Made by a program: the position numbers and the translations under genes
Notes under the pieces: model-generated
What the model saw: the letters and a program-made list of their open reading frames with translations, nothing else
Databases searched by the model: none
Told to the model about the DNA's origin: nothing
NCBI GenBank assembly: GCA_951406725.2
Contig: OX597815.1
Coordinates: 145,514,001 to 145,578,000, forward strand
Origin: Octopus vulgaris
Taxonomy: Eukaryota
Length of the DNA stretch: 64,000 nucleotides
Reading direction: 5' to 3'
Part shown: piece by piece, positions 156 through 62,720 of the stretch
Numbering within the stretch: the first letter of the stretch is position 1
Layout of the letters: each line of letters starts with the position of its first letter

Positions 156-1280
156 TCACCCGGCCACGAGCGATATTCCTCTTTTAGTCCCTCCAGCTTT
201 AGAAACGCGCAACGTTATGACCCCCACAGCTATCTGCGGAAGCCATTCGGGGTCCTGTGTGAAGGCCAAAGGTATTCCCTCGTAGTGTTCTTTCACTATC
301 TTTTCCACTTCTCCGCCTCTATTAAAGAAGACTATCAGTTCATCGTCATCCGAGTCCGAGGAGATCAATTTTAACGTTAGCGGCACAATTTCCGCCAATG
401 GTGTCTCTCCCCCTCCGGTGGCACACCCGATGAGGCTCCGTGACACTCCGGCGTCATGTCTCCGATTGCCGGTAATGCACCGTTTTTCCTCCTCTTCCCC
501 TTTTTTTCTTCTCGACTGGGGGAGGGTGCGCCTCCCCTCCCTCATCCCCAGGATCCTTCGGTGAGCACCCATCATTGCTCTCCTTTTTCCTTTTGCGACT
601 CTTCTTTGAGGAGTCCTCCGTCTCCTCGGCCGCATTCATTCCCTTCTCTACCGCTCCAGGATTTTGCTTTGCCCTTGAGAACAGTTCTTTTTTATATGGC
701 CAAGCTTCAAGTACCGATGACACTTGGGGGGTGGGGGTAGGGGCTCCCTCAAGAATCACCGGATACCTAGACCCGGCCATTCTCAAAAAGTCTGGAAGTA
801 CCAGACTTTCGGCTGACTGTGTCCATAGGGTTAAAACAGCTTTTGGCCCCTCCCAGTCAGCCGCAGGCAGAATATTTACGTTGAGGAGCTTGGTGTTACT
901 GCCACCCAGACCCCGGCGGATAGTATCTTCAATCTACTCGGGCTCAACTCCGGGTGGCAAGCTGCAAACCAAGCCCTCGTCAAACTCTTCCCACAATAAG
1001 TGGAAAGAAACAAAATTTCATTGCCCTCCAGGGGCTGGCTCACAAATTCACGGGCCACTTCTGGAGAGTCAAACAGCAACCACACGGTTGACTATTTGAC
1101 CTCCGAGTGATAAACTTAATCGCTGGCTTAAATTCTGCCAGCTCTCGTTCGATTATATCCTTTCTGAAAACGGCAATGGCATCGAGGGTCCTAGAGTAGG
1201 TCCTCAAAACCACTGTCTTTAACCACGTTCTTTTAACCACTTTTTGGGTGGTGTAATTTCAAACTCCACCAACATTTCAT
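156..1280 (-). pseudogene. Decayed LINE ORF1/gag-like protein (RRM-like region + degenerate zinc knuckle), unit 1
   Basis: Frameshifted pieces in ORFs 1040-1240, 876-1085, 454-786 and 156-635; the minus strand near 680-725 reads KCHRYLKLGHIKKNC (degenerate CX2CX4HX4C); clearly paralogous to 2200-3250 (shared MAGSRYPV..EG and GC.P.DP motifs). Confidence 0.7.
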
Positions 1281-2199
1281 TGTTATTTGCCAAGTTTTTT
1301 TAAAAAAAGAGTCCCAAAATACAGTTGTTATAATATAAAATAATTAAGGAAAAAGAAAGAAGAGGAAAAATGTCCAAACAAAAAGGAAGGAGAGAAAAAA
1401 ATAAACAGTTCAATAAAGAGATTTTAAAAAAATCAAAGATAGATGAAGAGAGAGCAACAGTTCAAAACACAGCAAAAGCCACTCGGTACTTCAGGCCAAA
1501 ATTTTAATACAATTGTAAAACATTTAAAAAATCATTCCAATTCTCTTCTAGGTACTTCTTGACAGGAAAAATATTGTTGAAATACTATTTTCAAACAAAA
1601 TTTTTCAGCAGCATACGCCCACCAAACCAATAATTTTCACAATTAAGTGAAAAAAAAATTTCATTCAGCCTCAGGCAGACTAGTGTCTAGTGAGGACTTC
1701 TTGTTTGTAAATATAATTGCGACATACAACAGGCCCTCACTAGAACTAAAAAAAGTCTTACCTTACAGCTGAGTTTGAAAACTCTTCAATTTAAGACGGC
1801 TTCAAAAGCACGTCTTACCGCTTCGGTGTCAAACACAACTTTGTCTCGCTCATGCGCAGTAAGGAAGCTACTTTATTTCATTTCATTTGCCATAGAGGCA
1901 GTACAAAGATGGGTAGCTTTGCGGGCTGGACATAGACATTAATGAGGCGGATGATTATGATCCAAAAATGATAAAGATGGGAGAAGGCAGAAAGCGCCCG
2001 CCGACCCTCTGCTTCTCTAAAACATTGTTCTTTAAAAATTCATTTGGACTAAAAAATACATAGTTATAAATTACAATTTATACACAAACTGGAGGCGAGA
2101 AACCTCTACAATTCTTCCCCGATTAAATTTCTTGCAACTTGCAGGCATTGCTGCCACCGAAATCTGGGTCTCAAAAAAAAAAAAAAAAAAAAGGATTCT

Positions 2200-3250
2200 T
2201 TAATTCTTGTCTTTACACGAGTCAATTATCTGATCACAGTACTTTCTTTCCAGCACCAGAGCAGCCACCTGCGAAGACAACTCGGGACTGTCAATACAAT
2301 TCAGTTCCCTCAGGACCCGACTATCCATATTATTCTCCACGAAACTGTCAATAGCCCCTCCCCTGAGATAGCAAAACATACATTCTTCACCACCTTCACT
2401 GGAAGGAGCCTCAACTCCCTCGCTCGGTGGGACACATCCCACTGACAAGGTCATCTTCTCCCCCCGAAGGGGTTTCGGGACATGCCGTCGCCGGCAATGC
2501 TCCGGTTTTCTTTTTTCTCTTCTTTTTTTCCTTTTACGACGGGAGGGTGGAGTTCCTCCGACATCTCCGGAGGACCTTCCATCACACCCGCCGTCTCAGG
2601 ATCCATCGGTGTGCAACCATTGTTGTCCCCCTTCTTTCTTTTCTGCCCCTTTATTTTCGAGGAGGTTACCTCCTCCTCAACTTTTTCCTCCACTGCGGGA
2701 GCAGGGAACACCTCTTCAATTAACTGTTCCAGCACCTTTGCCTGATCCCGGCGACAGTTCTTCTTTATGTGGCCCGATTCGAGGCACAGGTGACACTTGG
2801 GGGGGGGGTGTCCCTCAACCATCACCGGGTACCTGGAACCGGCCATTGTCAAAAAATCTGGTAAAACCAGATCATCGGCTGATTGGGTCCATAGGGTCAA
2901 AATTGCTTTTGACCCGACCTAATCAACCGCAGGCAGCATTTTTACATTTAAGAGCCTGGCAGGGCCGCCACCCAGGCCCCGACAGATAGTGTCTTCTATC
3001 TATTCGGCCTCTATACCGGGTGGCAGCCCGCACACCCAGGCTCTTGTCAACCCTCTACCACCATAAGTAGGGAGAAACAAAATTTTCTCCCCCACCAAAG
3101 GCGTGTTCGCAAAATCTCGAGCTTCCGTAGGGGTGTTAAAAAGTACACACACAGTTCCTTACTTCGCAACTGCGAATAAACTTAACAAATGGTATTCCGT
3201 TCAACTCCGGCTGTACTCCTATCCTTTATGGTAAAAATCCACTTGAAAGG
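2200..3250 (-). pseudogene. Decayed LINE ORF1/gag-like protein with intact zinc knuckle, unit 2
   Basis: ORF 2451-2900 contains KCHLCLESGHIKKNC (CX2CX4HX4C) followed by a Lys/Glu-rich tail; upstream sequence is homologous to unit 1. Confidence 0.75.
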
Positions 3251-9648: not shown

Positions 9649-9873
9649 TCACCACGAAGCCAAGGCGCAAGTCAAGCGTGACGCCGAAATAAAAGAGCAA
9701 GATTCCCTGCCACTAAACGTTGGACCTGACAGTTTGAACGACACTAACACCACCACCACCACCACCACCACCATCAGCATCAACAACAGCAACAACAACA
9801 AAACCAAGGTCACAGCGCCAATTACCGTAACCACCACCAATGATTCCACCATCAACACCAACACACCACCACC

Positions 9874-11660
9874 ATGGCAGCTTGTGCTACTACAACTGCT
9901 TCCTCTGCTAACGATACCACTACCAACAACAACACTAAAACCAAGGTCGCAAGGCCAAAGTACCCACCACTGCAACCAATGAATCCACCATCAACACCGA
10001 CACCATCGTTGACAAACGCTTACGACGTTGATTTCCCTACACTGCCTTCACAACAATTTCATGAAGGAGGGGAAATGGAGAAAAGCAACACAGGCGCAAG
10101 TGTGAGCATGGACGCTACCACCGCCGCTACACAAAAACTGGTAAACAACCCGACTTCACAGTTATCTTCTCCTACTACGAACGACTCTGCCACAAACATC
10201 ACCACCAACACCACCACCACCATGACCACCACCACCACCTCCACAAAAAACACCACGAATTTCGAGGAAGCAATACGACCGAAAAGAAGAATCTTAAAAT
10301 TTACTCATCAACAAATACAAGACACAAAGTCCTTGCTCACCAAAGAAGGCGACACAATACATTTAAATATTCCACGGAACATTTTAGAAGAGAGAAACAC
10401 AAAAGAAGACCATCATCTACAAAATACTCAACACCAAAACAAAGAGACCAGAAAGCCCAGCTACAGAAAAGATTGAGAAGTGTCTCGCTTCTGTGTGAAG
10501 TTCCGAAATTATGTGGAATTGGGGTGTAAATTTGCTACCGTGCAAGTTCGCTTCCATACGGAAGAACTAGCAAAGAAGTTTTCCACTCTTACTCTGCGCA
10601 CAGACCAAGTAACAATGGTACCTAGCTATCTTGGGCGCAGAGTAACGAAAATAACAATAAACAATGTGCCTCCAGAAGTGGATACCCAGTGGCTGGTATC
10701 AGCCATCTGCTTCGATATAGAAGAAGAAGATATTTTAAAAGTCGCGTCGACATTCCAGAGGAAAGCTGGACTGATAAAAAGCTTGAAATATTGCTTCAAA
10801 TCTCCAAGAAGCAATAAACAATTTACCAACCAGTGTTCAACTGGCAAAAGACCAAAAATTGTATGTAGTGGTGAAGGGCAGGAGGCCAAGTTGCTATTTA
10901 TTTGTGCAACAGTGAGGCACACCTCAGATATGATTGCCCAACTGCTGCCAGAAATAGGCAACAGCAACCACTCCCAAAACCTGGAAGAAAACCCCTGCTA
11001 CCTACACCACCTTCAACACAAAAGACAGGAAAAACAACAGGATGATGCAAAAACTGTTTCCCCCTCACCAACCACATCACCAAGAAGAGAATCAACTCCA
11101 TCACAATTACCTACAACATCGCAACTAACTAGAGAAACAACACTACCACCATCAAAAGTCAGACCAACACCAACACCAGCACCAAGAACAACAACCAAGA
11201 AAACAAATAACAATGACGAAAAGACAAATTCTGCCCCTAATACCCCAACAACACAAACACCACACAAAACAACAACATCTTCTACAAACACACATATAGA
11301 TGCAAACGCTTTGCCTTTACCCCCTTCTGATTTGTCAGACTTTTCGTTTAACGACGAAAGTTCGACAGAATGGCAAATATAGTCACCGGGGTAAAAGAAA
11401 AAGATAAAAAAAACAAACAAACAAGAAAATGCAACTAAAATAGGTAGATATCTGTACCCTGAAAGCTCCTTACACAACCAAACCAGCACCAACACCACAA
11501 AAAACACACACAATGTTATCAGCGATAGTCACCAAAGACTCAAAACTAATGGAGTACATCATAGCCCACACAAACATCTGTGAAGATGACTTCAAAACTA
11601 ACAACCATCCACGCACTACACCCAAACACATCAAGATACTACACGATCATCACACAAACA
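9874..11660 (+). pseudogene. Decayed LINE ORF1/gag-like protein (Thr-rich N-terminus, RRM-like region, frameshifted zinc knuckle)
   Basis: VQVRFHTEELAKKFST...VPSYLGRRVTKITINNVPPEVD aligns by eye with unit 1 LLFDSPEVAREFVSQ...STYCGKSLTRAW; near 10890-10940 GRRPSCYL/CNSEAHLRYDCP is a CX2CX4HX4C knuckle broken by a small TATT duplication. Confidence 0.65.
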
Positions 11661-13584: not shown

Positions 13585-15198
13585 GGCCTCCTGAGCCATG
13601 GCGAGGGCAACGCGTCTAGGAAAAGGAAAGGTACAATATAAGCCAGGTTTGTGGTTGCTGACGGTCCCCTTACTTGATGTGCACTATCAACATGTACTTA
13701 CTGATAGGGCAGTCCGGGCTCTGTAGCTTTTGAGCAACTGGACTAGGAGAAGGCCCTCTGATTTCAAATCTGCGATCGATTCATCATCTGACACGTGGCA
13801 CAGAGTGCACCTGTACAGGTAAATACGTTTTTGATGGAGAGAGTGTGTATTGTGCTGTAAAGTAATAACCACTATAAACAAACCATGCGCAGGTAGATAA
13901 GTAAATACCGCCATCATGTTTTGATGGTGAGAGTGTACACGCCCCACGGAGAAAAAAGAAGAAAAATAAAGAAAAGGAAAATCCTGTGAAGGGGAAAGTA
14001 TAGCAAATGTAGCAGGTGAAGGATGTCACAGGAAGTTCTTAGCTTCAGCTTTGCACATCTGCAGGTAATTGTGTAATTCGTGCTCTCCTTACACAACAAA
14101 GCAGCCCCGTTTAGGATATCACTACTTTCCTCCTATGGAAGAGGGGTCAAGAAAATTCGTTCCAAAAATTGCTTACTTGCATTGCTTCTCGTCATTAGGT
14201 GCAAATAACTGGGCAGCGAAATCTGCACAAGAAAATTAAGGAAATTGAAGACAGAAAGCCATCTTAGAATGCAAGAACTCTTCAGGACAAGTAAGAAAAA
14301 TATAGAACGTAGGACCGCTTTGGTTGCTCGTGTTTTGAAGGAAAAATACATCGGAATAGCAGCTCTTTCAGAAACCAGATTAGCAGACTGTGGTCAGCTA
14401 CAGGAGGTTAATAGTGGATACACATTTTTCTGGATGGGTAAGCCTCGGAAAGTAGAGAAAGAGGCAGGTATTAGGTTTGCTATTCGGAATGACCTGGTGA
14501 AACAACTTGAATCTATGCCTGTTGGAATTAATGAAGGTCTCACTTATTTGCGCACGTGCATTGGCAAAACTAAATATGCAACTATTTTCAACTGCTATTT
14601 TCAGGCGTAGAAGTGGCTATGTGGTAAGTAGCTTGCTTAACAACCACATGGTTCCAGGTTCAGTCCCATTGTGTGGCACCTTGGGCAAGTGTCTTCTACT
14701 ATAGCCTCGGGCCAGACCAAAGCCTTGCGAGTGGATTTGGTAGACGGAAACTGAAAGAAGCCCGTCGTATATATGTATATATATATGCGTGTGTGTGTTT
14801 GTGTATCTGTGTTTGTCCCCCCCCCAACATCGCTTGACAACCGTAACTTAGCGGTTCGGCAAAAGAGTCCGATAGAATAAGTACTAGGTTTACAAAGAAT
14901 AAGTTCTGGACTCGATTTGCTCGAATAAAGGTGGTGCTCCAGCATGACCGCAGTCAAATGACTGAAACAAGTAAAAGAGTAAAAGAGTGCTATGTTCCAA
15001 CCATGAACTCAAATGAAGTAGTTAGAGAGCAGTTCTGCACTGGGCTACATAGCCAGTTGAGAGGTGTCTCCATCCATGATAATCAAAGTGATTTCAATCC
15101 ATGTATAGGCTGTGATAAATCCATATGGGGTGACGTAATAAGGAAGCATGGGGTTGGAAAAAGCAAACTCAAACGGCCATCTGCTGCTATCATTTTGC
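13585..15198 (+). mobile_element. RTE-clade LINE 5' part (5' UTR + APE endonuclease), interrupted by a SINE
   Basis: ERRTALVAR..IGIAALSETRL..G.L.E...GYTFFW.G, continuing after the SINE as CYVPTM...DFN..IG...HG.GK.NSNG.LLL.FC: RTE-type AP endonuclease. Confidence 0.8.
14603..14987 (+). mobile_element. tRNA-derived CORE-type SINE (resembles octopus OR1/OR2-like families)
   Basis: A-box-like GTGGCTATGTGGTAAG, B-box-like GGTTCAGTCCC, CORE-like CCTTGGGCAAGTG, internal (TA)(TG) tract, GTAAAAGA tail; flanked by TGCTAT direct repeats. Confidence 0.85.
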
Positions 15199-21511: not shown

Positions 21512-21848
21512 CTGTTCTATATTTAAGAGATCAGGAATTATGTACATTAAATACATTATTTACGTTTGACAGATATTTGTCCTCATCTTGTTTGTTCTTA
21601 ACTCAACGTTTCGGCTTATATACCCGCCAGCCTTTATCAAGTGTCTAGAGGGAAATTTCGAACATGGGTTCTCATTCCTAAGGTATTTTTCGATGTTGTT
21701 GTTGTTGTTGTTGTTCTTGTTGTTGTTCTTCTTCTTGTTCTTCTTGTTCTTCTTGTTCTTCTTGTTCTTCTTGTTCTTCTTCTTGTTCTTCTTGTTCTTC
21801 TTGTTCTTGTTCTTGTTCTTCTTGTTCTTGTTCTTCTTCTTCTTCTTC

Positions 21849-21898
<50 letters not shown>

Positions 21899-22310
21899 CT
21901 TCTTCTTCTTCTTCTTCTTCTCCTCCTCCTCCTCCTTCTCCTCCTCCTCCTCCTCCTCCTCCTCTTTCTTCATTATTTTTTCTTCTTTCTTAAAATTTTC
22001 TTCCATTTCTTGCTGAGTGTTTTCCGTACACCTGGGGCAGAGAAGCTCATTGTATGCATTCCCAGATTACACACGCAAATTCACAGGTAAAATATGTATT
22101 TTAAAAAATTAATAAAGAAATAAATTCATGAATGGATGTTGTTTTCACAGCGATAATGCTCTTCTCACATTATCATTCTTCTTCATCTTCTTATTCAGGT
22201 CACTACCTAGAATCGAACTCGGAATCTTGGGGTCAGTAGCCCGCGCTATTAACCACTACTGTATTTGCCCGTGGATGAGGACAAATATCCATCAAATGTA
22301 AATAATGTAT
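21512..22310 (-). mobile_element. Composite element: tRNA-like head + microsatellite + hammerhead-bearing tail
   Basis: Minus strand 22195-22272 reads GTAGTGGTTAATAGCGCGGGCTACTGACCCCAAGATTCCGAGTTCGATTC (A/B-box-like); 21512-21695 is the same HHR arm as at 26821-27013. Confidence 0.65.
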
Positions 22311-25464: not shown

Positions 25465-26122
25465 TATGTTTGACTTTTGCTTTATATTTGTACAAGTTGG
25501 CTCCAAGTCTCACCCAGAGACCTCAAGAGACAACAGGGTTGGAAGTTCATGTTGTTGTTATGCCTAGTGTGCCATATATTTGGGGGGTGGGGATGTTGTA
25601 CTAATGAATGTCTAAAAAGAAAAAAAAAAGGTTTTTTTTTTTTTTTTTTTTTTTTAAACCGAAAATTATGTTTGTTTTAAACCTTGAGATTACATAGAGA
25701 GTATTTTGCGTAGGATATGAGCAGTTCCCATGAGCACTATCTTTTGAACTTCTGCCATTTTTGGGTTTCCTGGTATCTGAGTTAGGTAGCTATCAGCCCC
25801 TTTTGCTATCATTCCCAGGGCACCTATGACAACAGGTATTGTTTTAGTCTTCAGCTTCCACATTTTGCTGATTTCTATTTCAAGATCTTTATATTTGCTC
25901 AGTTTTTGGTAGGTCTTGACAGATACGTTTATATCGATTGGGACAGTCATATCAATGAGGAGGCATGTTCTTTGTTTGAAGTTTTTCAATATGATGTCTG
26001 GCCTATTTGCATCTATCTTCCTGTCAGTTTGAATGGTGAAGTTCCAGAGGAGTGAGATGTGGTCATTTTCAAGCACTGGGGGTGGTTTGTGTTCCCACCA
26101 GTTTTTTTCATGGGGCAAATCC
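25463..26122 (-). mobile_element. R4/Dong-like LINE 3' fragment (family A), uninterrupted RLE reading frame
   Basis: LWNFTIQTDRKIDANRPDIILKN...LLIDMTVP...KLSKYKDL...GTAHILRKILSM; (TAA)n on both sides. Confidence 0.9.
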
Positions 26123-26129
26123 ATTATTA

Positions 26130-26167
<38 letters not shown>

Positions 26168-26179
26168 ACAACAACAGCA

Positions 26180-26442
26180 ACCAACCTCGAGAAATATGCC
26201 AGAGAAATTTGAATTGACATGAGAACAGAGCAAGCCCCCCCCCCCAAAAAAAAAAAAAACTGGTCTGCTAGGGCTAGCTAGGATTTTGAGACTGGTACTT
26301 GGGTGTTGAATGTCTTTAATTAACCAATTATTAAAGCTTATAATTTGCGGAAAGAGACCTTGTGAGACCTCTGACAACAGGCTGCCATCCGCTCTCACAG
26401 AATTAACCAGAGCAAACAAGACCGAGCGCTCTGAGAAGTAAA
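26180..26442 (+). mobile_element. R4/Dong-like LINE 3' end (family C)
   Basis: KTGLLG.ARILRLVLG end motif; 3' UTR ...CTCTGAGAAGTAAAA + (CAA)n, matching the minus-strand copy at 32502-32845. Confidence 0.65.
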
Positions 26443-26916
26443 ACAACAACAACAACAACAACAACAACAATAGAAACAACAACAACAACAACAACAACAA
26501 CAGCAACAACAACAACAGTAACAACAACGGCAGCAGGAACAAAAACAATAGAGACCGTAAGTACTAACATACTATTTCAATTTACATGCAAGACAATTCC
26601 GAAAATTCCAGTGCTTTACATAAACTGTAAACTATTTAAATGTCAACACACACACACACGATATACCCACGTAATTACACACATAAACGCACATATATAC
26701 AAAATAAAATACACGGGAATATGTTTCTAATGCACACCGAATCAACGGTCTCAACATCAAAGCTGATGCCCGACATTCAAGATATGTAAGCCAAGTTTTC
26801 ATTATGTCATATTCTATTGCAGTTCTATATTTAAGAGATAGGGAATTATTCACATCATTTACATTATTTACATCATTTACATTTGACGGATATTTTCCTC
26901 ATCTTGTCTGTTGTTA

Positions 26917-26960
26917 ACACAACGTTTCGACTGATATATCCTCCAGCCTTCTTCAGGTGT
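26917..26960 (-). ncRNA. Minimal type I hammerhead ribozyme motif
   Basis: Minus strand ACAC-CTGAAGA-aGGCTG gaggatatat CAGTC-GAAA-CG-TT-GTGT. Confidence 0.75.
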
Positions 26961-27054
26961 CTTGGGGGAAATTTCGAACCTGGGGTCTCATTCCTAAGGT
27001 ATTTTTCGATGTTACAACAAGAACAAGAACAAGAACAACTACAACAGCAGCAGC

Positions 27055-27126
<72 letters not shown>

Positions 27127-27181
27127 AATAACATAAAAAAATACCTTAATAATGAGAACCCAGGTTCAAAATTTCCCCAAG

Positions 27182-27225
27182 ATACCTGATGAAGGCTGGA
27201 GGGTATATCAGCCGAAACGTTGTGT
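27182..27225 (+). ncRNA. Minimal type I hammerhead ribozyme motif
   Basis: ATAC-CTGATGA-aGGCTG gagggtatat CAGCC-GAAA-CG-TT-GTGT; complete core, palindromic AACGTT in place of stem III. Confidence 0.8.
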
Positions 27226-27417
27226 TAACAACAAACAAAATAAGTCAAATATCCGTCAAATGTAAATAATGTAAATAATGGTCATATCCTATTATCTGCA
27301 AAAATGAAAGTGATAAATAAAGCCCTCGATGTACATAAAAATAGAATGGTCAGATTTGAATGCCTTTGATTATCGCCCTGCTTAATCCGGATTGACTTTG
27401 GGTTAAACAGCAACAGC

Positions 27418-27481
<64 letters not shown>

Positions 27482-27482
27482 C

Positions 27483-27527
<45 letters not shown>

Positions 27528-27547
27528 GCAACAACCACAACAACAGC

Positions 27548-27590
<43 letters not shown>

Positions 27591-45415: not shown

Positions 45416-45633
45416 CAGTTCTATATTTGAGAGATGACGAATTATGTACGTTATTTATATTATTTACATTTGACGAATATTTGTCTTCATCTTGTTTGTT
45501 GTTAACACAATGAAAACCGAGGCTCGAAATTCTCCCACCACACCCGAGGAAGGCTGGAGAGTCCATCAGACTGTGTTAACAACATACAAGGTGAGGACAA
45601 ATACCCGTCAAATGTAAATAATGTAAATAATGT
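45416..45633. mobile_element. Collapsed inverted pair of the HHR-arm family
   Basis: TTTACATTTGACG..TTGTTAACACA and TGTGTTAACAA..CGTCAAATGTAAATAATG inverted ends; the centre keeps a decayed CCGAGGAAGGCTGG..CAG core. Confidence 0.75.
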
Positions 45634-60599: not shown

Positions 60600-62720
60600 A
60601 TGTTTTATAGGTTGAACGATATTTCGACAGCTAGCTCTTGTCGAGTTCAAAATGAAAAGTGATATATAGAAATTCAAATGCAAAGTTTGAGCGAGCCAAC
60701 CAGCGTTCCCACATTGATGTAATGACATAATCAGAAAATGTAAACATTTTCAAATTTACAACTGGTAAAAAGGAAAAGAAAGAGATAAAAGAAAAGAACA
60801 GAAAAAAGCAGAATATTTAATCAAAGTTTTGTGTAAGTATGATGATATTCTGTCATTTTATTTATCCCTCTAGAGCGTGATGTTAACTCCCAAGTATATT
60901 TCTTCTCATGCATTTTGAGGACTGAGAACGTAGCAGATTGAGAATATTTTCTGAGAATAGGTACTTTCAAGTCTTTTTCAAAATTGCGGCCGTTTGAAAC
61001 GAAATGTTCGGCAAGTTCTGTCGAACTACTGTTATTTTGCCTGACGTTGAATCTGTGACCATTGAACCTTTTGTCTAATTGTTCAGTTGCACAACCAACA
61101 TAAACCAAGTTGTGTTTGGTGCATTCTGCTGCGTACTCCAAATGGAAATCTCTACACGTCCCACATTCCGTATAAGTCATAACATTTCTGTTATGATTCC
61201 TGACAAAATCAGCACAATGAACAGGGCTTACATCTCTTGCGACTGTTTTTCAAGGTATAGCGTGCAGAAACTCCAATGTTAGTTTTCTTGGAGTCAAAAG
61301 TTGGGGTTAATAGTTCTCTTATATTTTTATTTCGTCTAAAGGCTACAATAGGCGGCTGAGGGAATATATGCTTGAAGCGAGGATATTTTCCCGCAACTTG
61401 CTGCTAACTTTCATGCAACATCTTGTAAATGCCAGCGCAATTTCGGTGACAGTTAATCACCAAGGGAATTCTGTCACATAATTTACTTTGCTACAATTAT
61501 GTGTGAAAGTTTGACTTTCTTTGCTAATCTTAGCTATGTCATTTGCAATTTCCTTTAATCGTGATTCATCATAACCGCGTTTGACATAATGGTATACAAA
61601 AATATTTGCATGATTCTAGTAATCCCTTATGTCAGTACAAATCCGTTTTATCCTCAAAAATTAGGATTTCAGATTTGACCGAATTAAATGATGTGGATGA
61701 TCAGAGTGGCGGTGGAGGTAAATATAGGATGACGTGACTTGCAAAATAACTCTGTCACTAAAATGCCTCCAGAAAGCTTAACTTTTGTGTCCAAAAATTC
61801 AACGATAGTGTTTGAAAAACTAGACGCAACTTTTATGCTAGACTTAAAGCCATAGATTTTAGTGTAACGCTCACAGAAATGTAAGAAGTCAATTAAACTA
61901 TCCTGGATCTTTCCCATACAAAAAAGACTTCATCAATGAACTGTAACCAGAGTACTGGTTCATGACCATGTAAGGATTTGAATGTCTTCAGTGACTGTGT
62001 CTCGAATTTTGTCATCAAGACATTAGCAAAATTAATTGCCATGAGTGTAACCATGGCGCAACCCTTCATATGGTGGTAAAACTTTTGTCCAAATTTCATT
62101 GTGTTACTTTGTAACACAAACCTCAATAATCTACAGAGAAAATTTGATGGAATACTTTTGTTTGACCGCATTTCGAAGGCATCCATGCATGCTTCTACCC
62201 CTTCATCGTGGTCAATATTGGGATATAAGAAAGAAACATCCATGGTTACCAAAAACAGTTTTCAACATGGCTTCGGTGCTTAAAAAGTTGTTGATTTTAG
62301 ACACAAAATCAAAGGTATCCTGAATATAGGAACTTGATCTTTTTGCGACAGACCGTAGAAAGTTGTCTAGCCACTCCGAAATTTTGAATGTGCAACATTC
62401 ATATCCGCTGCAAATTGGGTGCATTGGAGGAAATCTTTCGAACGTTTTGTGTATTTTGGGGAGACCATAAGATATAGATGTTCTTTGTGACCGTAAAATT
62501 CTGGATTCGGTCTTATTAATGACATTATTTTACTTCATATCCAGAATTATTTTATCAAGTTCTTCTCTGTAATTGGGGTTTGGATCAACAGGTAATTCTT
62601 CATATGACGTTTTGTCGCTTAAAACTTCTTCACAAACCGAAATATACTCACATTTGTCCATAATCACAATGTCGCCTCCCTTATCTGCCATTTTAATAAC
62701 AATAGAATCATTATTAGCTA
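60600..62720 (-). mobile_element. Penelope-like retroelement remnant (RT + GIY-YIG endonuclease)
   Basis: IKMADKGGDIVIMD, YGLPKIHK, TMDVSFLYPNIDH, G.AM...A..FAN, LQFIDEVFFVW, VEFLD (PLE RT); NLVYVGCATEQLDKRFNGHR..LAEHF (GIY-YIG). Confidence 0.9.

What the first reader, a model, noticed from the sequence alone, without database searches (positions are those of the whole stretch)
26821..27280. Divergent twin hammerhead ribozymes flanking a (CAA)n microsatellite
Seen: ~150 bp inverted arms, each with a complete core (CTGATGA or CTGAAGA, 5 bp stem II, GAAA, palindromic AACGTT, 4 bp stem I), pointing outward from a CAA tract. The same family recurs at 21512-22310 and 45416-45633, each time with inverted termini. 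Known: minimal type I HHRs with palindromic stem III occur in PLEs/retrozymes and cleave as dimers. Inference: an abundant non-autonomous ribozyme element that builds palindromes; transcription from either side would give one sense HHR plus its antisense arm, allowing a fold-back that could suppress cleavage or form dsRNA.
Basis: partly seen in the sequence, partly recalled or inferred. Interest (0 to 1): 0.75.

Follow-up and report, generated by a model that had tools for sequence, protein, structure and literature searches.

The report
Back-to-back Penelope retrotransposon ends
This is a cut-short, back-to-back insertion of the end repeat of a Penelope-type jumping gene, a known arrangement whose two ribozyme motifs are likely passengers; the family's one unusual feature is a tRNA-like segment at which most short copies begin, which may be its promoter.

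Summary
In detail: two divergent arms (89% alike over 152 nt), each with a minimal type I hammerhead motif, around a (CAA)n tract. It is not a free-standing ribozyme element. Each arm is the end repeat (pLTR) of a Penelope/Poseidon-type retrotransposon: RT + GIY-YIG-like ORF, then a tRNA-like segment, (AAT/AAC)n, ATG, hammerhead and tail. The locus is one insertion, with a 13-bp target-site duplication and the tail on one arm only. In G000, 55 of 62 close pairs are divergent, none convergent; 41 of 45 have one tail; 32 of 48 have a duplication. This architecture, opposite-strand hammerhead pairs included, is published. The motifs are copied uncut, decay like their flanks (P=0.13) and are predicted to be locked in read-through RNA; nothing supports a function for the fold-back. 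Unusual at family level: a tRNA-like segment with A and B boxes inside the pLTR, at whose start 49 of 79 arms begin, suggesting a Pol III promoter (untested; this locus has lost it). The scan noted the same family before on other DNA of this genome (e1-8669850, e1-8663237).

The parts
26806..26818 (+). Left copy of a 13-bp target-site duplication (1 mismatch)
   Evidence: 32 of 48 such pairs carry one, against 1.8 for mismatched flanks
26820..27013 (-). Left arm: inverted, 5'-truncated PLE end repeat with the full tail; stops exactly at the edge of the microsatellite
26820..26861 (-). About 35-40 nt 'tail', present on this arm only
   Evidence: one tail in 41 of 45 divergent pairs
26916..26961 (-). 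Left minimal hammerhead motif (N7 = A, one G-U in stem II); predicted cut after 26921
27014..27133 (+). (CAA)n tract, the element's own (AAT/AAC)n spacer read in the sense of the right arm
27130..27280 (+). Right arm: PLE end repeat without tail
27152..27238 (+). ATG and first 29 codons of the PLE ORF, running through the hammerhead; frameshifted afterwards in this copy
27181..27226 (+). Right minimal hammerhead motif (stem I 27181-85/27222-26, core 27186-92, stem II 27194-98/27209-13, GAAA 27214-17); predicted cut after 27221
27281..27293 (+). Right copy of the target-site duplication
21514..22309 (.). Second insertion of the family: tailed minus arm 21514-21697, expanded simple repeats, tRNA-like segment on the minus strand, 35-nt plus arm 22275-22309; weak 13-bp duplication with 2 mismatches
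22194..22270 (-). tRNA-like segment (A and B boxes) of the second insertion; the only copy of it in the window
45416..45633 (.). Third insertion: tailed minus arm 45416-45510 joined to an untailed plus arm 45509-45633; cores broken; 8-bp duplication

Best explanation
The locus is a single, 5'-truncated insertion of a Penelope/Poseidon-type retrotransposon, made of two copies of its end repeat joined head to head and flanked by a 13-bp target-site duplication, most likely produced by reverse transcription primed from both strands of a staggered cut. SHOWN: the unit is ORF (RT, C-terminal GIY-YIG-like domain), about 25 nt, a 73-nt tRNA-like segment, (AAT/AAC)n, ATG, hammerhead, and two preferred 3' ends about 130 and 163 nt after the ATG; pairs are divergent, carry the tail on one arm and a duplication around the whole; both arms extend 59 and about 100 nt beyond the predicted cut, so the template was uncut. 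INFERRED: the element's protein nicks both strands about 13 nt apart; each nick primes cDNA at one of the two internal start sites (hence one tail); both cDNAs run towards the RNA 5' end, stop at or before it, and are joined end to end; here both stopped before the tRNA-like segment. The hammerhead is under selection in source elements, where it overlaps the first codons of the ORF, and is a decaying passenger in copies like this one; in read-through RNA it is predicted to be locked by the opposite arm, a by-product of the insertion route. INFERRED, less firm (about 0.5): the tRNA-like segment marks the RNA start and works as a Pol III promoter, which would explain why short SINE-like copies far outnumber ORF-bearing ones.
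For: ORF linkage: 7 loci chosen without regard to the ORF carry ORF sequence directly upstream of the tRNA-like segment; 26 of 30 ORF-selected loci continue into it or the arm (L250 counted after correcting my reversed orientation; L231/L232 and L254/L255/L259 are near-duplicates); the arm continues into the ORF start in 12 of 30. Protein: RVT_1 E=1.5e-7 in 1 of 5 fragments scanned; 36% identity over 361 aa, pairwise E=8e-63, to an 836-aa Anolis carolinensis RT-endonuclease protein, P0042. Orientation 55 divergent, 7 tandem, 0 convergent of 62 pairs within 1 kb; one tail in 41 of 45, none in 4, both in 0. Duplication score >=8 in 32 of 48 against a mean of 1.8, maximum 4, for mismatched flanks. 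Arms of one locus share more non-majority letters than shuffled pairs (16 vs 6.1+-2.4, 51 pairs, P=0.0005; subfamily marker in both arms in 5 of 43 against 0.84 expected). The peptide over the hammerhead is kept in a distant full-length relative, P0005 (PD.G...PKR; 15 of 47 identical), and 15 of 80 metagenome relatives have a sense-strand hammerhead-like motif. Published match: inverted pLTR, one-sided tail, TSD, palindrome at the junction (PMC3846280, passages; PMC8557442, passages); both strands cut and extended, two internal start sites, unprocessed RNA as substrate (PMC11167929, parts 1-2 of 4).
Against: No intact full-length copy was seen; the unit was pieced together from overlapping natural copies. 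Four of 5 fragments had no Pfam hit, so the endonuclease rests on visible motifs and on relatives' annotations (PF01541 in 3 of 81 hits). The clade was not tested by a tree. The two arms of this very locus differ at two polymorphic sites (N7 and position 54), which fits two templates or recurrent change rather than one template; N7 is discordant in 5 of 40 pairs. 16 of 48 pairs show no clear duplication. Two-nick priming cannot be told from self-priming on an antisense template (the reading of PMC3846280) by these data. For the promoter step: see rivals and the section on the most novel reading.
Confidence: 0.88

Rival explanations
1. A separate tRNA-headed SINE, made by Pol III from ORF-less source copies and moved in trans by the PLE protein, accounts for most short copies, this locus included.
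For: 49 of 79 arms that hold the 3' half of the tRNA-like segment begin within -20..+6 of its start, and only 9 (7 loci) reach further than 30 nt upstream. In the 800-kb sample no copy with the segment extends into the ORF, and 1 ORF fragment stands against 11 arm loci. No T4 run in the 185-nt arm majority.
Against: Short (117) and ORF-linked (34) copies have the same majority letter at all 185 positions; the N7=A/130=G subfamily occurs in both. The PLE's own 5' repeat gives the same short product if the RNA starts at the segment, so no separate source is needed. This locus has no tRNA-like segment.
Confidence: 0.2
2. The pile-up of 5' ends is a reverse-transcription stop or fold-back at a short hairpin (5-bp stem, 2-nt loop) at the start of the tRNA-like segment; the segment is an inert captured fragment and the element uses an ordinary Pol II promoter.
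For: The hairpin is the centre of many palindromes and short fold-backs. Palindromes of 18 and 38 bp at pLTR 5' ends are described in rotifer PLEs without any tRNA (PMC3846280). Copies do not fold as a cloverleaf, ARAGORN calls none in 23 loci and Rfam none in 8. In RNA reads of organism B the depth step at the segment is only about twofold.
Against: The boundary coincides with the 5' end of a segment with A and B boxes at tRNA spacing that aligns to a tRNA-Arg(TCG) gene of G000 (49 of 73 letters, best of 30 genes; z 4.5-6.9 against shuffles in 5 copies, the best shuffle reaching or nearing the score in 2). Several copies start at -7..+2 next to unrelated flank with no fold-back.
Confidence: 0.35
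3. One reading: the palindrome is a regulatory device in which the antisense arm switches the ribozyme off or yields dsRNA.
For: The fold-back is predicted on both strands and removes stem II. Family sequence is present in RNA reads in both directions, including joints between opposite strands.
Against: The palindrome is the default insertion product of PLEs. Arms have drifted 4% and 7% from the majority, like other copies (median 7%). Core conservation equals the flanks, and only 22 of 83 scorable unselected copies keep an intact motif. No pile-up of read ends at the cut in 2 raw RNA runs (organism B may not be the window's species, and cDNA libraries show ends poorly). No transcript of this locus was shown.
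Confidence: 0.04
4. A non-LTR retrozyme: tandem hammerhead repeats that spread through circular RNA.
For: 7 of 62 close pairs are tandem, L005 with two full arms in a row; such a tandem could form the dimer within one RNA.
Against: 89% of pairs are inverted, no array of more than two units was seen, copy ends do not lie at the cut, and the hammerhead is the minimal PLE type.
Confidence: 0.03

Closest known systems
Endonuclease-bearing Penelope-like elements, Penelope/Poseidon type: Poseidon_Ac of the green anole (PMC11167929, parts 1-2 of 4 read)
   Same: RT + C-terminal GIY-YIG-like ORF; hammerhead overlapping the first codons; two 3' ends that define a tail, about 130 and 163 nt after the ATG; template copied uncut; no read ends at the cut.
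   Different: Here the ATG lies about 33 nt upstream of the core rather than at stem II, and the repeat contains a tRNA-like segment and an (AAT/AAC)n tract. That P0042 is Poseidon_Ac is my inference from its species and N-terminus.
Inverted-pLTR insertions of Adineta vaga Pen2a/Pen2/Pen3a (PMC3846280, passages read)
   Same: Head-to-head repeats, tail on one, 8-10 bp TSD around the whole, repeat includes the first codons, palindrome at the 5' junction.
   Different: Those repeats carry TATA/Inr-like motifs; 'tRNA' does not occur in that text. TSDs here are mostly 9-14 bp.
Minimal type I hammerheads of animal PLEs (PMC4209133, parts 1-2 of 4 read)
   Same: No helix III, palindromic 15.2-16.2, extra base between 9 and 10.1, G10.1-C11.1, 4-5 bp helix I; that paper already reports pairs 100-700 bp apart on opposite strands and low activity even as dimers.
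   Different: Helix II is 5 bp here against 7-8 bp in the schistosome families; activity of this motif untested.
Sm-alpha / Sj-alpha SINE-like repeats of schistosomes (PMC2770079, passages read)
   Same: tRNA-related sequence and a hammerhead in one short abundant repeat.
   Different: Those are described as SINE-like, with no ORF in the passages read; canonical hammerhead and tandem organisation are recalled, not checked. Here the same sequence is the end of a coding element.
TRIMp3: Cassandra, Helenus, Ajax (PMC10886601, passages read)
   Same: Small-RNA-derived Pol III promoter inside a terminal repeat.
   Different: Those are non-autonomous LTR elements; the paper argues that autonomous partners must use Pol II, and 'Penelope' does not occur in it.
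Non-LTR retrozymes (PMC7229834, passages; bioRxiv 10.64898/2026.07.22.740005, parts 1-2 of 5)
   Same: Type I hammerhead, PLE connection.
   Different: Defined by tandem repeats and circular RNA; here mostly inverted pairs with TSD and tail.

Membership tests
EN+ Penelope-like element | Single ORF with PLE-type reverse transcriptase | tested here: met
   RVT_1 hit; DKG, LRPIV, GLAMG, YVDD, YRKPT in order in a 737-aa open stretch of the column majority; 36% to P0042
EN+ Penelope-like element | C-terminal GIY-YIG endonuclease | tested here: inconclusive
   VYSIPC..LYKGET motif after the RT, aligned to the same region of P0042; no PF01541 hit in 2 fragments that hold it; GIY-YIG position reads LYKG
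EN+ Penelope-like element | pLTR: same sequence at the ORF's 3' side and running into its 5' start | tested here: met
   26 of 30 and 12 of 30
EN+ Penelope-like element | Hammerhead motif in the pLTR | tested here: met
EN+ Penelope-like element | Inverted 5'-truncated copy, optional 30-40 bp tail at one end, TSD | tested here: met
   55 of 62, 41 of 45, 32 of 48
Penelope/Poseidon clade | RT phylogeny | not tested
   Only pairwise: 36% to P0042 against 29% to the other, 781-aa PLE family of G000
Active hammerhead ribozyme | Conserved core and helices I and II | tested here: met
   Both arms; the target fold lies 2.6 and 0.9 kcal/mol above the monomer minimum, stem I probability 0.13
Active hammerhead ribozyme | Self-cleavage (dimer or protein-assisted) | not testable with these tools
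   No end pile-up in 2 raw RNA runs; predicted homodimer minimum is not the active fold
tRNA-derived SINE | tRNA-related head with A and B boxes | tested here: met
   Family level only; absent from this locus; not called by ARAGORN at default or by Rfam
tRNA-derived SINE | Independent non-autonomous lineage, distinct from the coding partner | tested here: not met
   Same majority sequence and shared subfamily markers in short and ORF-linked copies
tRNA-derived SINE | Transcription by RNA polymerase III | not testable with these tools
   Indirect only: 5' end pile-up, lack of T4 runs
Non-LTR retrozyme | Tandem units each with a hammerhead | tested here: not met
   7 of 62 pairs tandem, no longer arrays seen
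Non-LTR retrozyme | Circular RNA monomers | not testable with these tools
   No suitable library

The most novel reading that the evidence does not exclude
An autonomous Penelope-like element has captured a tRNA-Arg gene fragment as a Pol III promoter and is read through its whole 2.9-kb unit by Pol III, so that one RNA is both the message for the RT-endonuclease and, through its 5' repeat, the template for tens of thousands of SINE-like copies: a LINE and its SINE in one piece, with the hammerhead inside the first codons as a protein-assisted switch. Support: 5' ends pile up at the segment (49 of 79); the 2211-nt majority ORF has no T4 terminator run against 2.6+-1.4 expected (P=0.04) while a second PLE family of the genome has 6-9. 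Against: the T4 deficit is not significant under an order-2 Markov null (P=0.24), and an uncapped RNA would need another route to translation.
Probability: 0.25. Interest if true: 0.65.

Novelty: new variant of a known kind. Interest (0 to 1): 0.32.

Why it matters
The locus itself is ordinary: one of roughly 20,000-70,000 decaying copies (14 per Mb, scaled to 2.8 Gb) with an architecture described for PLEs since at least 2013. Two things have some value. The counts (one tail in 41 of 45 pairs, never two; shared subfamily markers between arms) are genome-side support for two-strand, two-start-site priming, the step of PLE insertion that is still open. And a tRNA-like segment inside a PLE end repeat did not turn up in five literature searches (listings; open-access library only, Repbase and Dfam not available); if it is a Pol III promoter it would show a direct route from a coding PLE to SINE-like progeny and would mean that part of what is annotated as SINE in such genomes is PLE ends.

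Tried and rejected
Rfam: no hit in the window; no hammerhead or tRNA model in 8 loci at E<=1. ARAGORN default: 0 genes in 23 loci; relaxed settings gave mostly noise, with the segment called in 1 of 7 loci. The young 781-aa PLE family found with PF01541 is not the source: no match to the arm in 30 loci of 3 kb or next to its ORF in 20 loci of 10 kb; the 4 loci with hits are separate insertions. Long spacers between segment and arm in L153, L164, L167, L168 are later insertions of other repeats. Microsatellite as target site: rejected, it lies inside the duplication and at a fixed place in the unit. No A/B-box segment within 300 nt upstream of the motif in the 15 of 80 metagenome relatives that show one (these are 27-51% identical and many are cut short). 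The look-up of sequencing runs: no RNA holder listed on record. Reads from X23, X24 (organism B) and contigs X1 show the family in both directions and no start or end pile-up; they pool thousands of copies and say nothing on this locus. A 3-nt deletion at the cut site in 13 of 162 copies does not segregate with one subfamily, so no ribozyme-dead lineage is claimed. The search of earlier findings by sequence gave nothing. Part 1 of 3 of a repeat-annotation paper on an octopus (PMC13282606), picked on a guess at the animal group, lists PLE and SINE totals but not this structure; its supplements, and those of the other papers, were not seen and may hold this family. Rows dropped before counts: L001 and L151; L001, L151, L231, L232, L255, L259, L261, L284, as duplicates.

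Full report
Observation. The two arms are real: 26820-27013 on the minus strand and 27130-27280 on the plus strand, 88.8% identical over 152 nt, around a (CAA)40 tract. Each holds CUGANGA, one extra A, a 5-bp stem II, GAAA, a palindromic ACGU with no loop, and a 5-bp stem I with wobbles. Rfam has no hit. The core pattern has 2193 exact matches in G000 against 0 for the control; 80 stretches of 10 kb at fixed coordinates hold 11 loci, about 14 per Mb.

What the arm belongs to. In the 30 best genomic matches and in 40 loci taken from the first 100 listed pattern matches, the arm is preceded by (AAT/AAC)n and a 73-nt segment with A- and B-box-like motifs. That segment aligns best to a tRNA-Arg(TCG) gene among 30 tRNA genes of G000 (49 of 73 letters; z 4.5-6.9 in 5 copies), but is not called by ARAGORN or Rfam. 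In 7 loci an ORF ends about 25 nt upstream of it. Searching with that ORF, 26 of 30 loci run on into the segment or the arm; searching with its 5' part, 12 of 30 loci have the arm directly upstream, in frame with the ORF start. The protein is a PLE-type RT with a C-terminal endonuclease-like domain, 36% identical over 361 aa to an Anolis protein, P0042, which I take to be Poseidon_Ac. The arm is therefore the pseudo-LTR of a coding PLE. The ATG is at 27152 in the right arm and the frame runs through the hammerhead; the free N7 position toggles Asp and Glu codons (T in 124, A in 27 of 162 copies). A distant full-length relative, P0005, keeps the same peptide over the core and changes the loop II part, which points to selection in source elements.

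How the palindrome arises. Of 62 neighbouring arm pairs within 1 kb, 55 are divergent, 7 tandem, none convergent; of 45 scorable divergent pairs 41 have the tail on one arm, 4 on neither, none on both. 32 of 48 one-tail pairs are flanked by a direct repeat scoring 8 or more, against 1.8 for mismatched flanks. This locus has a 13-bp duplication (26806-26818, 27281-27293) and the tail on the left, so it is one event. Arms of one locus share more rare letters than chance (16 vs 6.1, P=0.0005; marker 130 in both arms in 5 of 43 against 0.84), so they mostly come from one template or one source; this locus is among the exceptions at two sites. These loci were chosen by hammerhead or ORF similarity or at fixed coordinates, never by orientation; in the fixed-coordinate sample alone 5 of 11 loci are divergent pairs and one more is inverted against the segment. 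The in vitro work on Poseidon_Ac reports cutting and extension of both strands, two internal start sites that define the tail, and unprocessed RNA as the substrate (PMC11167929). Applying that here is inference: two nicks, two start sites, two cDNAs joined at their ends. Self-priming on an antisense template, proposed in PMC3846280, is not excluded.

The ribozymes. Both arms reach well past the predicted cut, so the template was uncut. Alone, the right motif forms stem II (0.94) but seldom stem I (0.13); in the whole locus the fold-back removes it on either strand. Among 95 copies not chosen by their core, core divergence is 3.4% and flank divergence 4.6% (P=0.13), and 22 of 83 scorable copies are intact. 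Two raw RNA runs of organism B show the family in both directions with no end pile-up; they cannot speak for this locus. Opposite-strand pairs of minimal hammerheads 100-700 bp apart, and their low activity, are in PMC4209133. The fold-back is best read as a by-product.

The unusual part. Of 79 arms that hold the 3' half of the tRNA-like segment, 49 begin within -20..+6 of its start, 21 further inside, and 9 more than 90 nt upstream. A Pol III start at the segment would explain this: reverse transcription from the 5' repeat would run off the RNA end and give a SINE-sized copy without any separate SINE source, in line with short and ORF-linked copies having one majority sequence. The ORF majority has no T4 run (expected 2.6, P=0.04; a second PLE family has 6-9), but this is not significant under a Markov null (P=0.24). 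A short hairpin at the same place is the centre of many palindromes and could cause the pile-up by itself, and in organism B reads the depth step there is only about twofold. None of 15 distant relatives with a visible motif has such a segment. Five searches of the paper library listed no PLE with a tRNA-derived repeat (listings, plus the passages named above); the nearest are Sm-alpha and the TRIMp3 LTR elements. The locus under study has lost this segment; the window's only copy is at 22194-22270.

Earlier notes. I reached the PLE reading before looking (notes; stated). The scan had filed the same family from other DNA of this genome with the same reading; these are unchecked notes and add no support, but they led me to PMC3846280.

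Verdict. Real, and a known kind of structure; the family is a variant through its tRNA-like segment, whose promoter role is untested. Interest 0.32.

Noticed in passing
window 21605-21640 (-): The hammerhead of the second insertion has both C3-to-U and G8-to-A, the paired U3-A8 core variant named in PMC4209133; it is 1 of 162 copies with both changes, so probably chance.
   Followed up: yes
L187, L192, L211-L216 (e.g. G000:C16:20838796): A second, much younger PLE family with intact 781-aa ORFs in many near-identical copies and a long 3' region of repeated CCAAT/ATTGG- and TGACGT-containing units; no hammerhead found by my pattern.
   Followed up: partly
L199, about 700 nt after the GIY-YIG match; similar text in L261: Another hammerhead-like motif with a U3-A8 core and a different stem II, seen by eye in printed sequence; a different family.
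   Followed up: no
L153, L164, L167, L168, L233, L242: Other retroelements (RT-coding fragments and a shorter repeat) sit inside this element's (AAT)n tract; the tract appears to be a preferred target of other elements.
   Followed up: partly
L151/L152 (G000:C1:8.95 and 9.05 Mb); L254/L255/L259; L262/L263: Near-identical copies with shared flanks, i.e. recent segmental duplications rather than separate insertions.
   Followed up: partly
L152, L173, L237: Long palindromes in which both arms include ORF sequence, up to about 1.9 kb between the repeats.
   Followed up: partly
window 60824-61249 (-): 142-aa open frame with a GIY-YIG-like stretch (LVYVG..T..RFNGH), probably a fragment of another PLE.
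   Followed up: no
window 159-2986 (-), 9844-11379 (+), 14209-14607 (+), 25693-26277 (-): Open frames that look like fragments of non-LTR retrotransposon ORF1, endonuclease and C-terminal regions (judged by eye).
   Followed up: no
window 26442-26528 and 27406-27590: Two more (AAC)n tracts flank the locus within 400 nt, on the same strand as the central tract, without arms of this family.
   Followed up: partly
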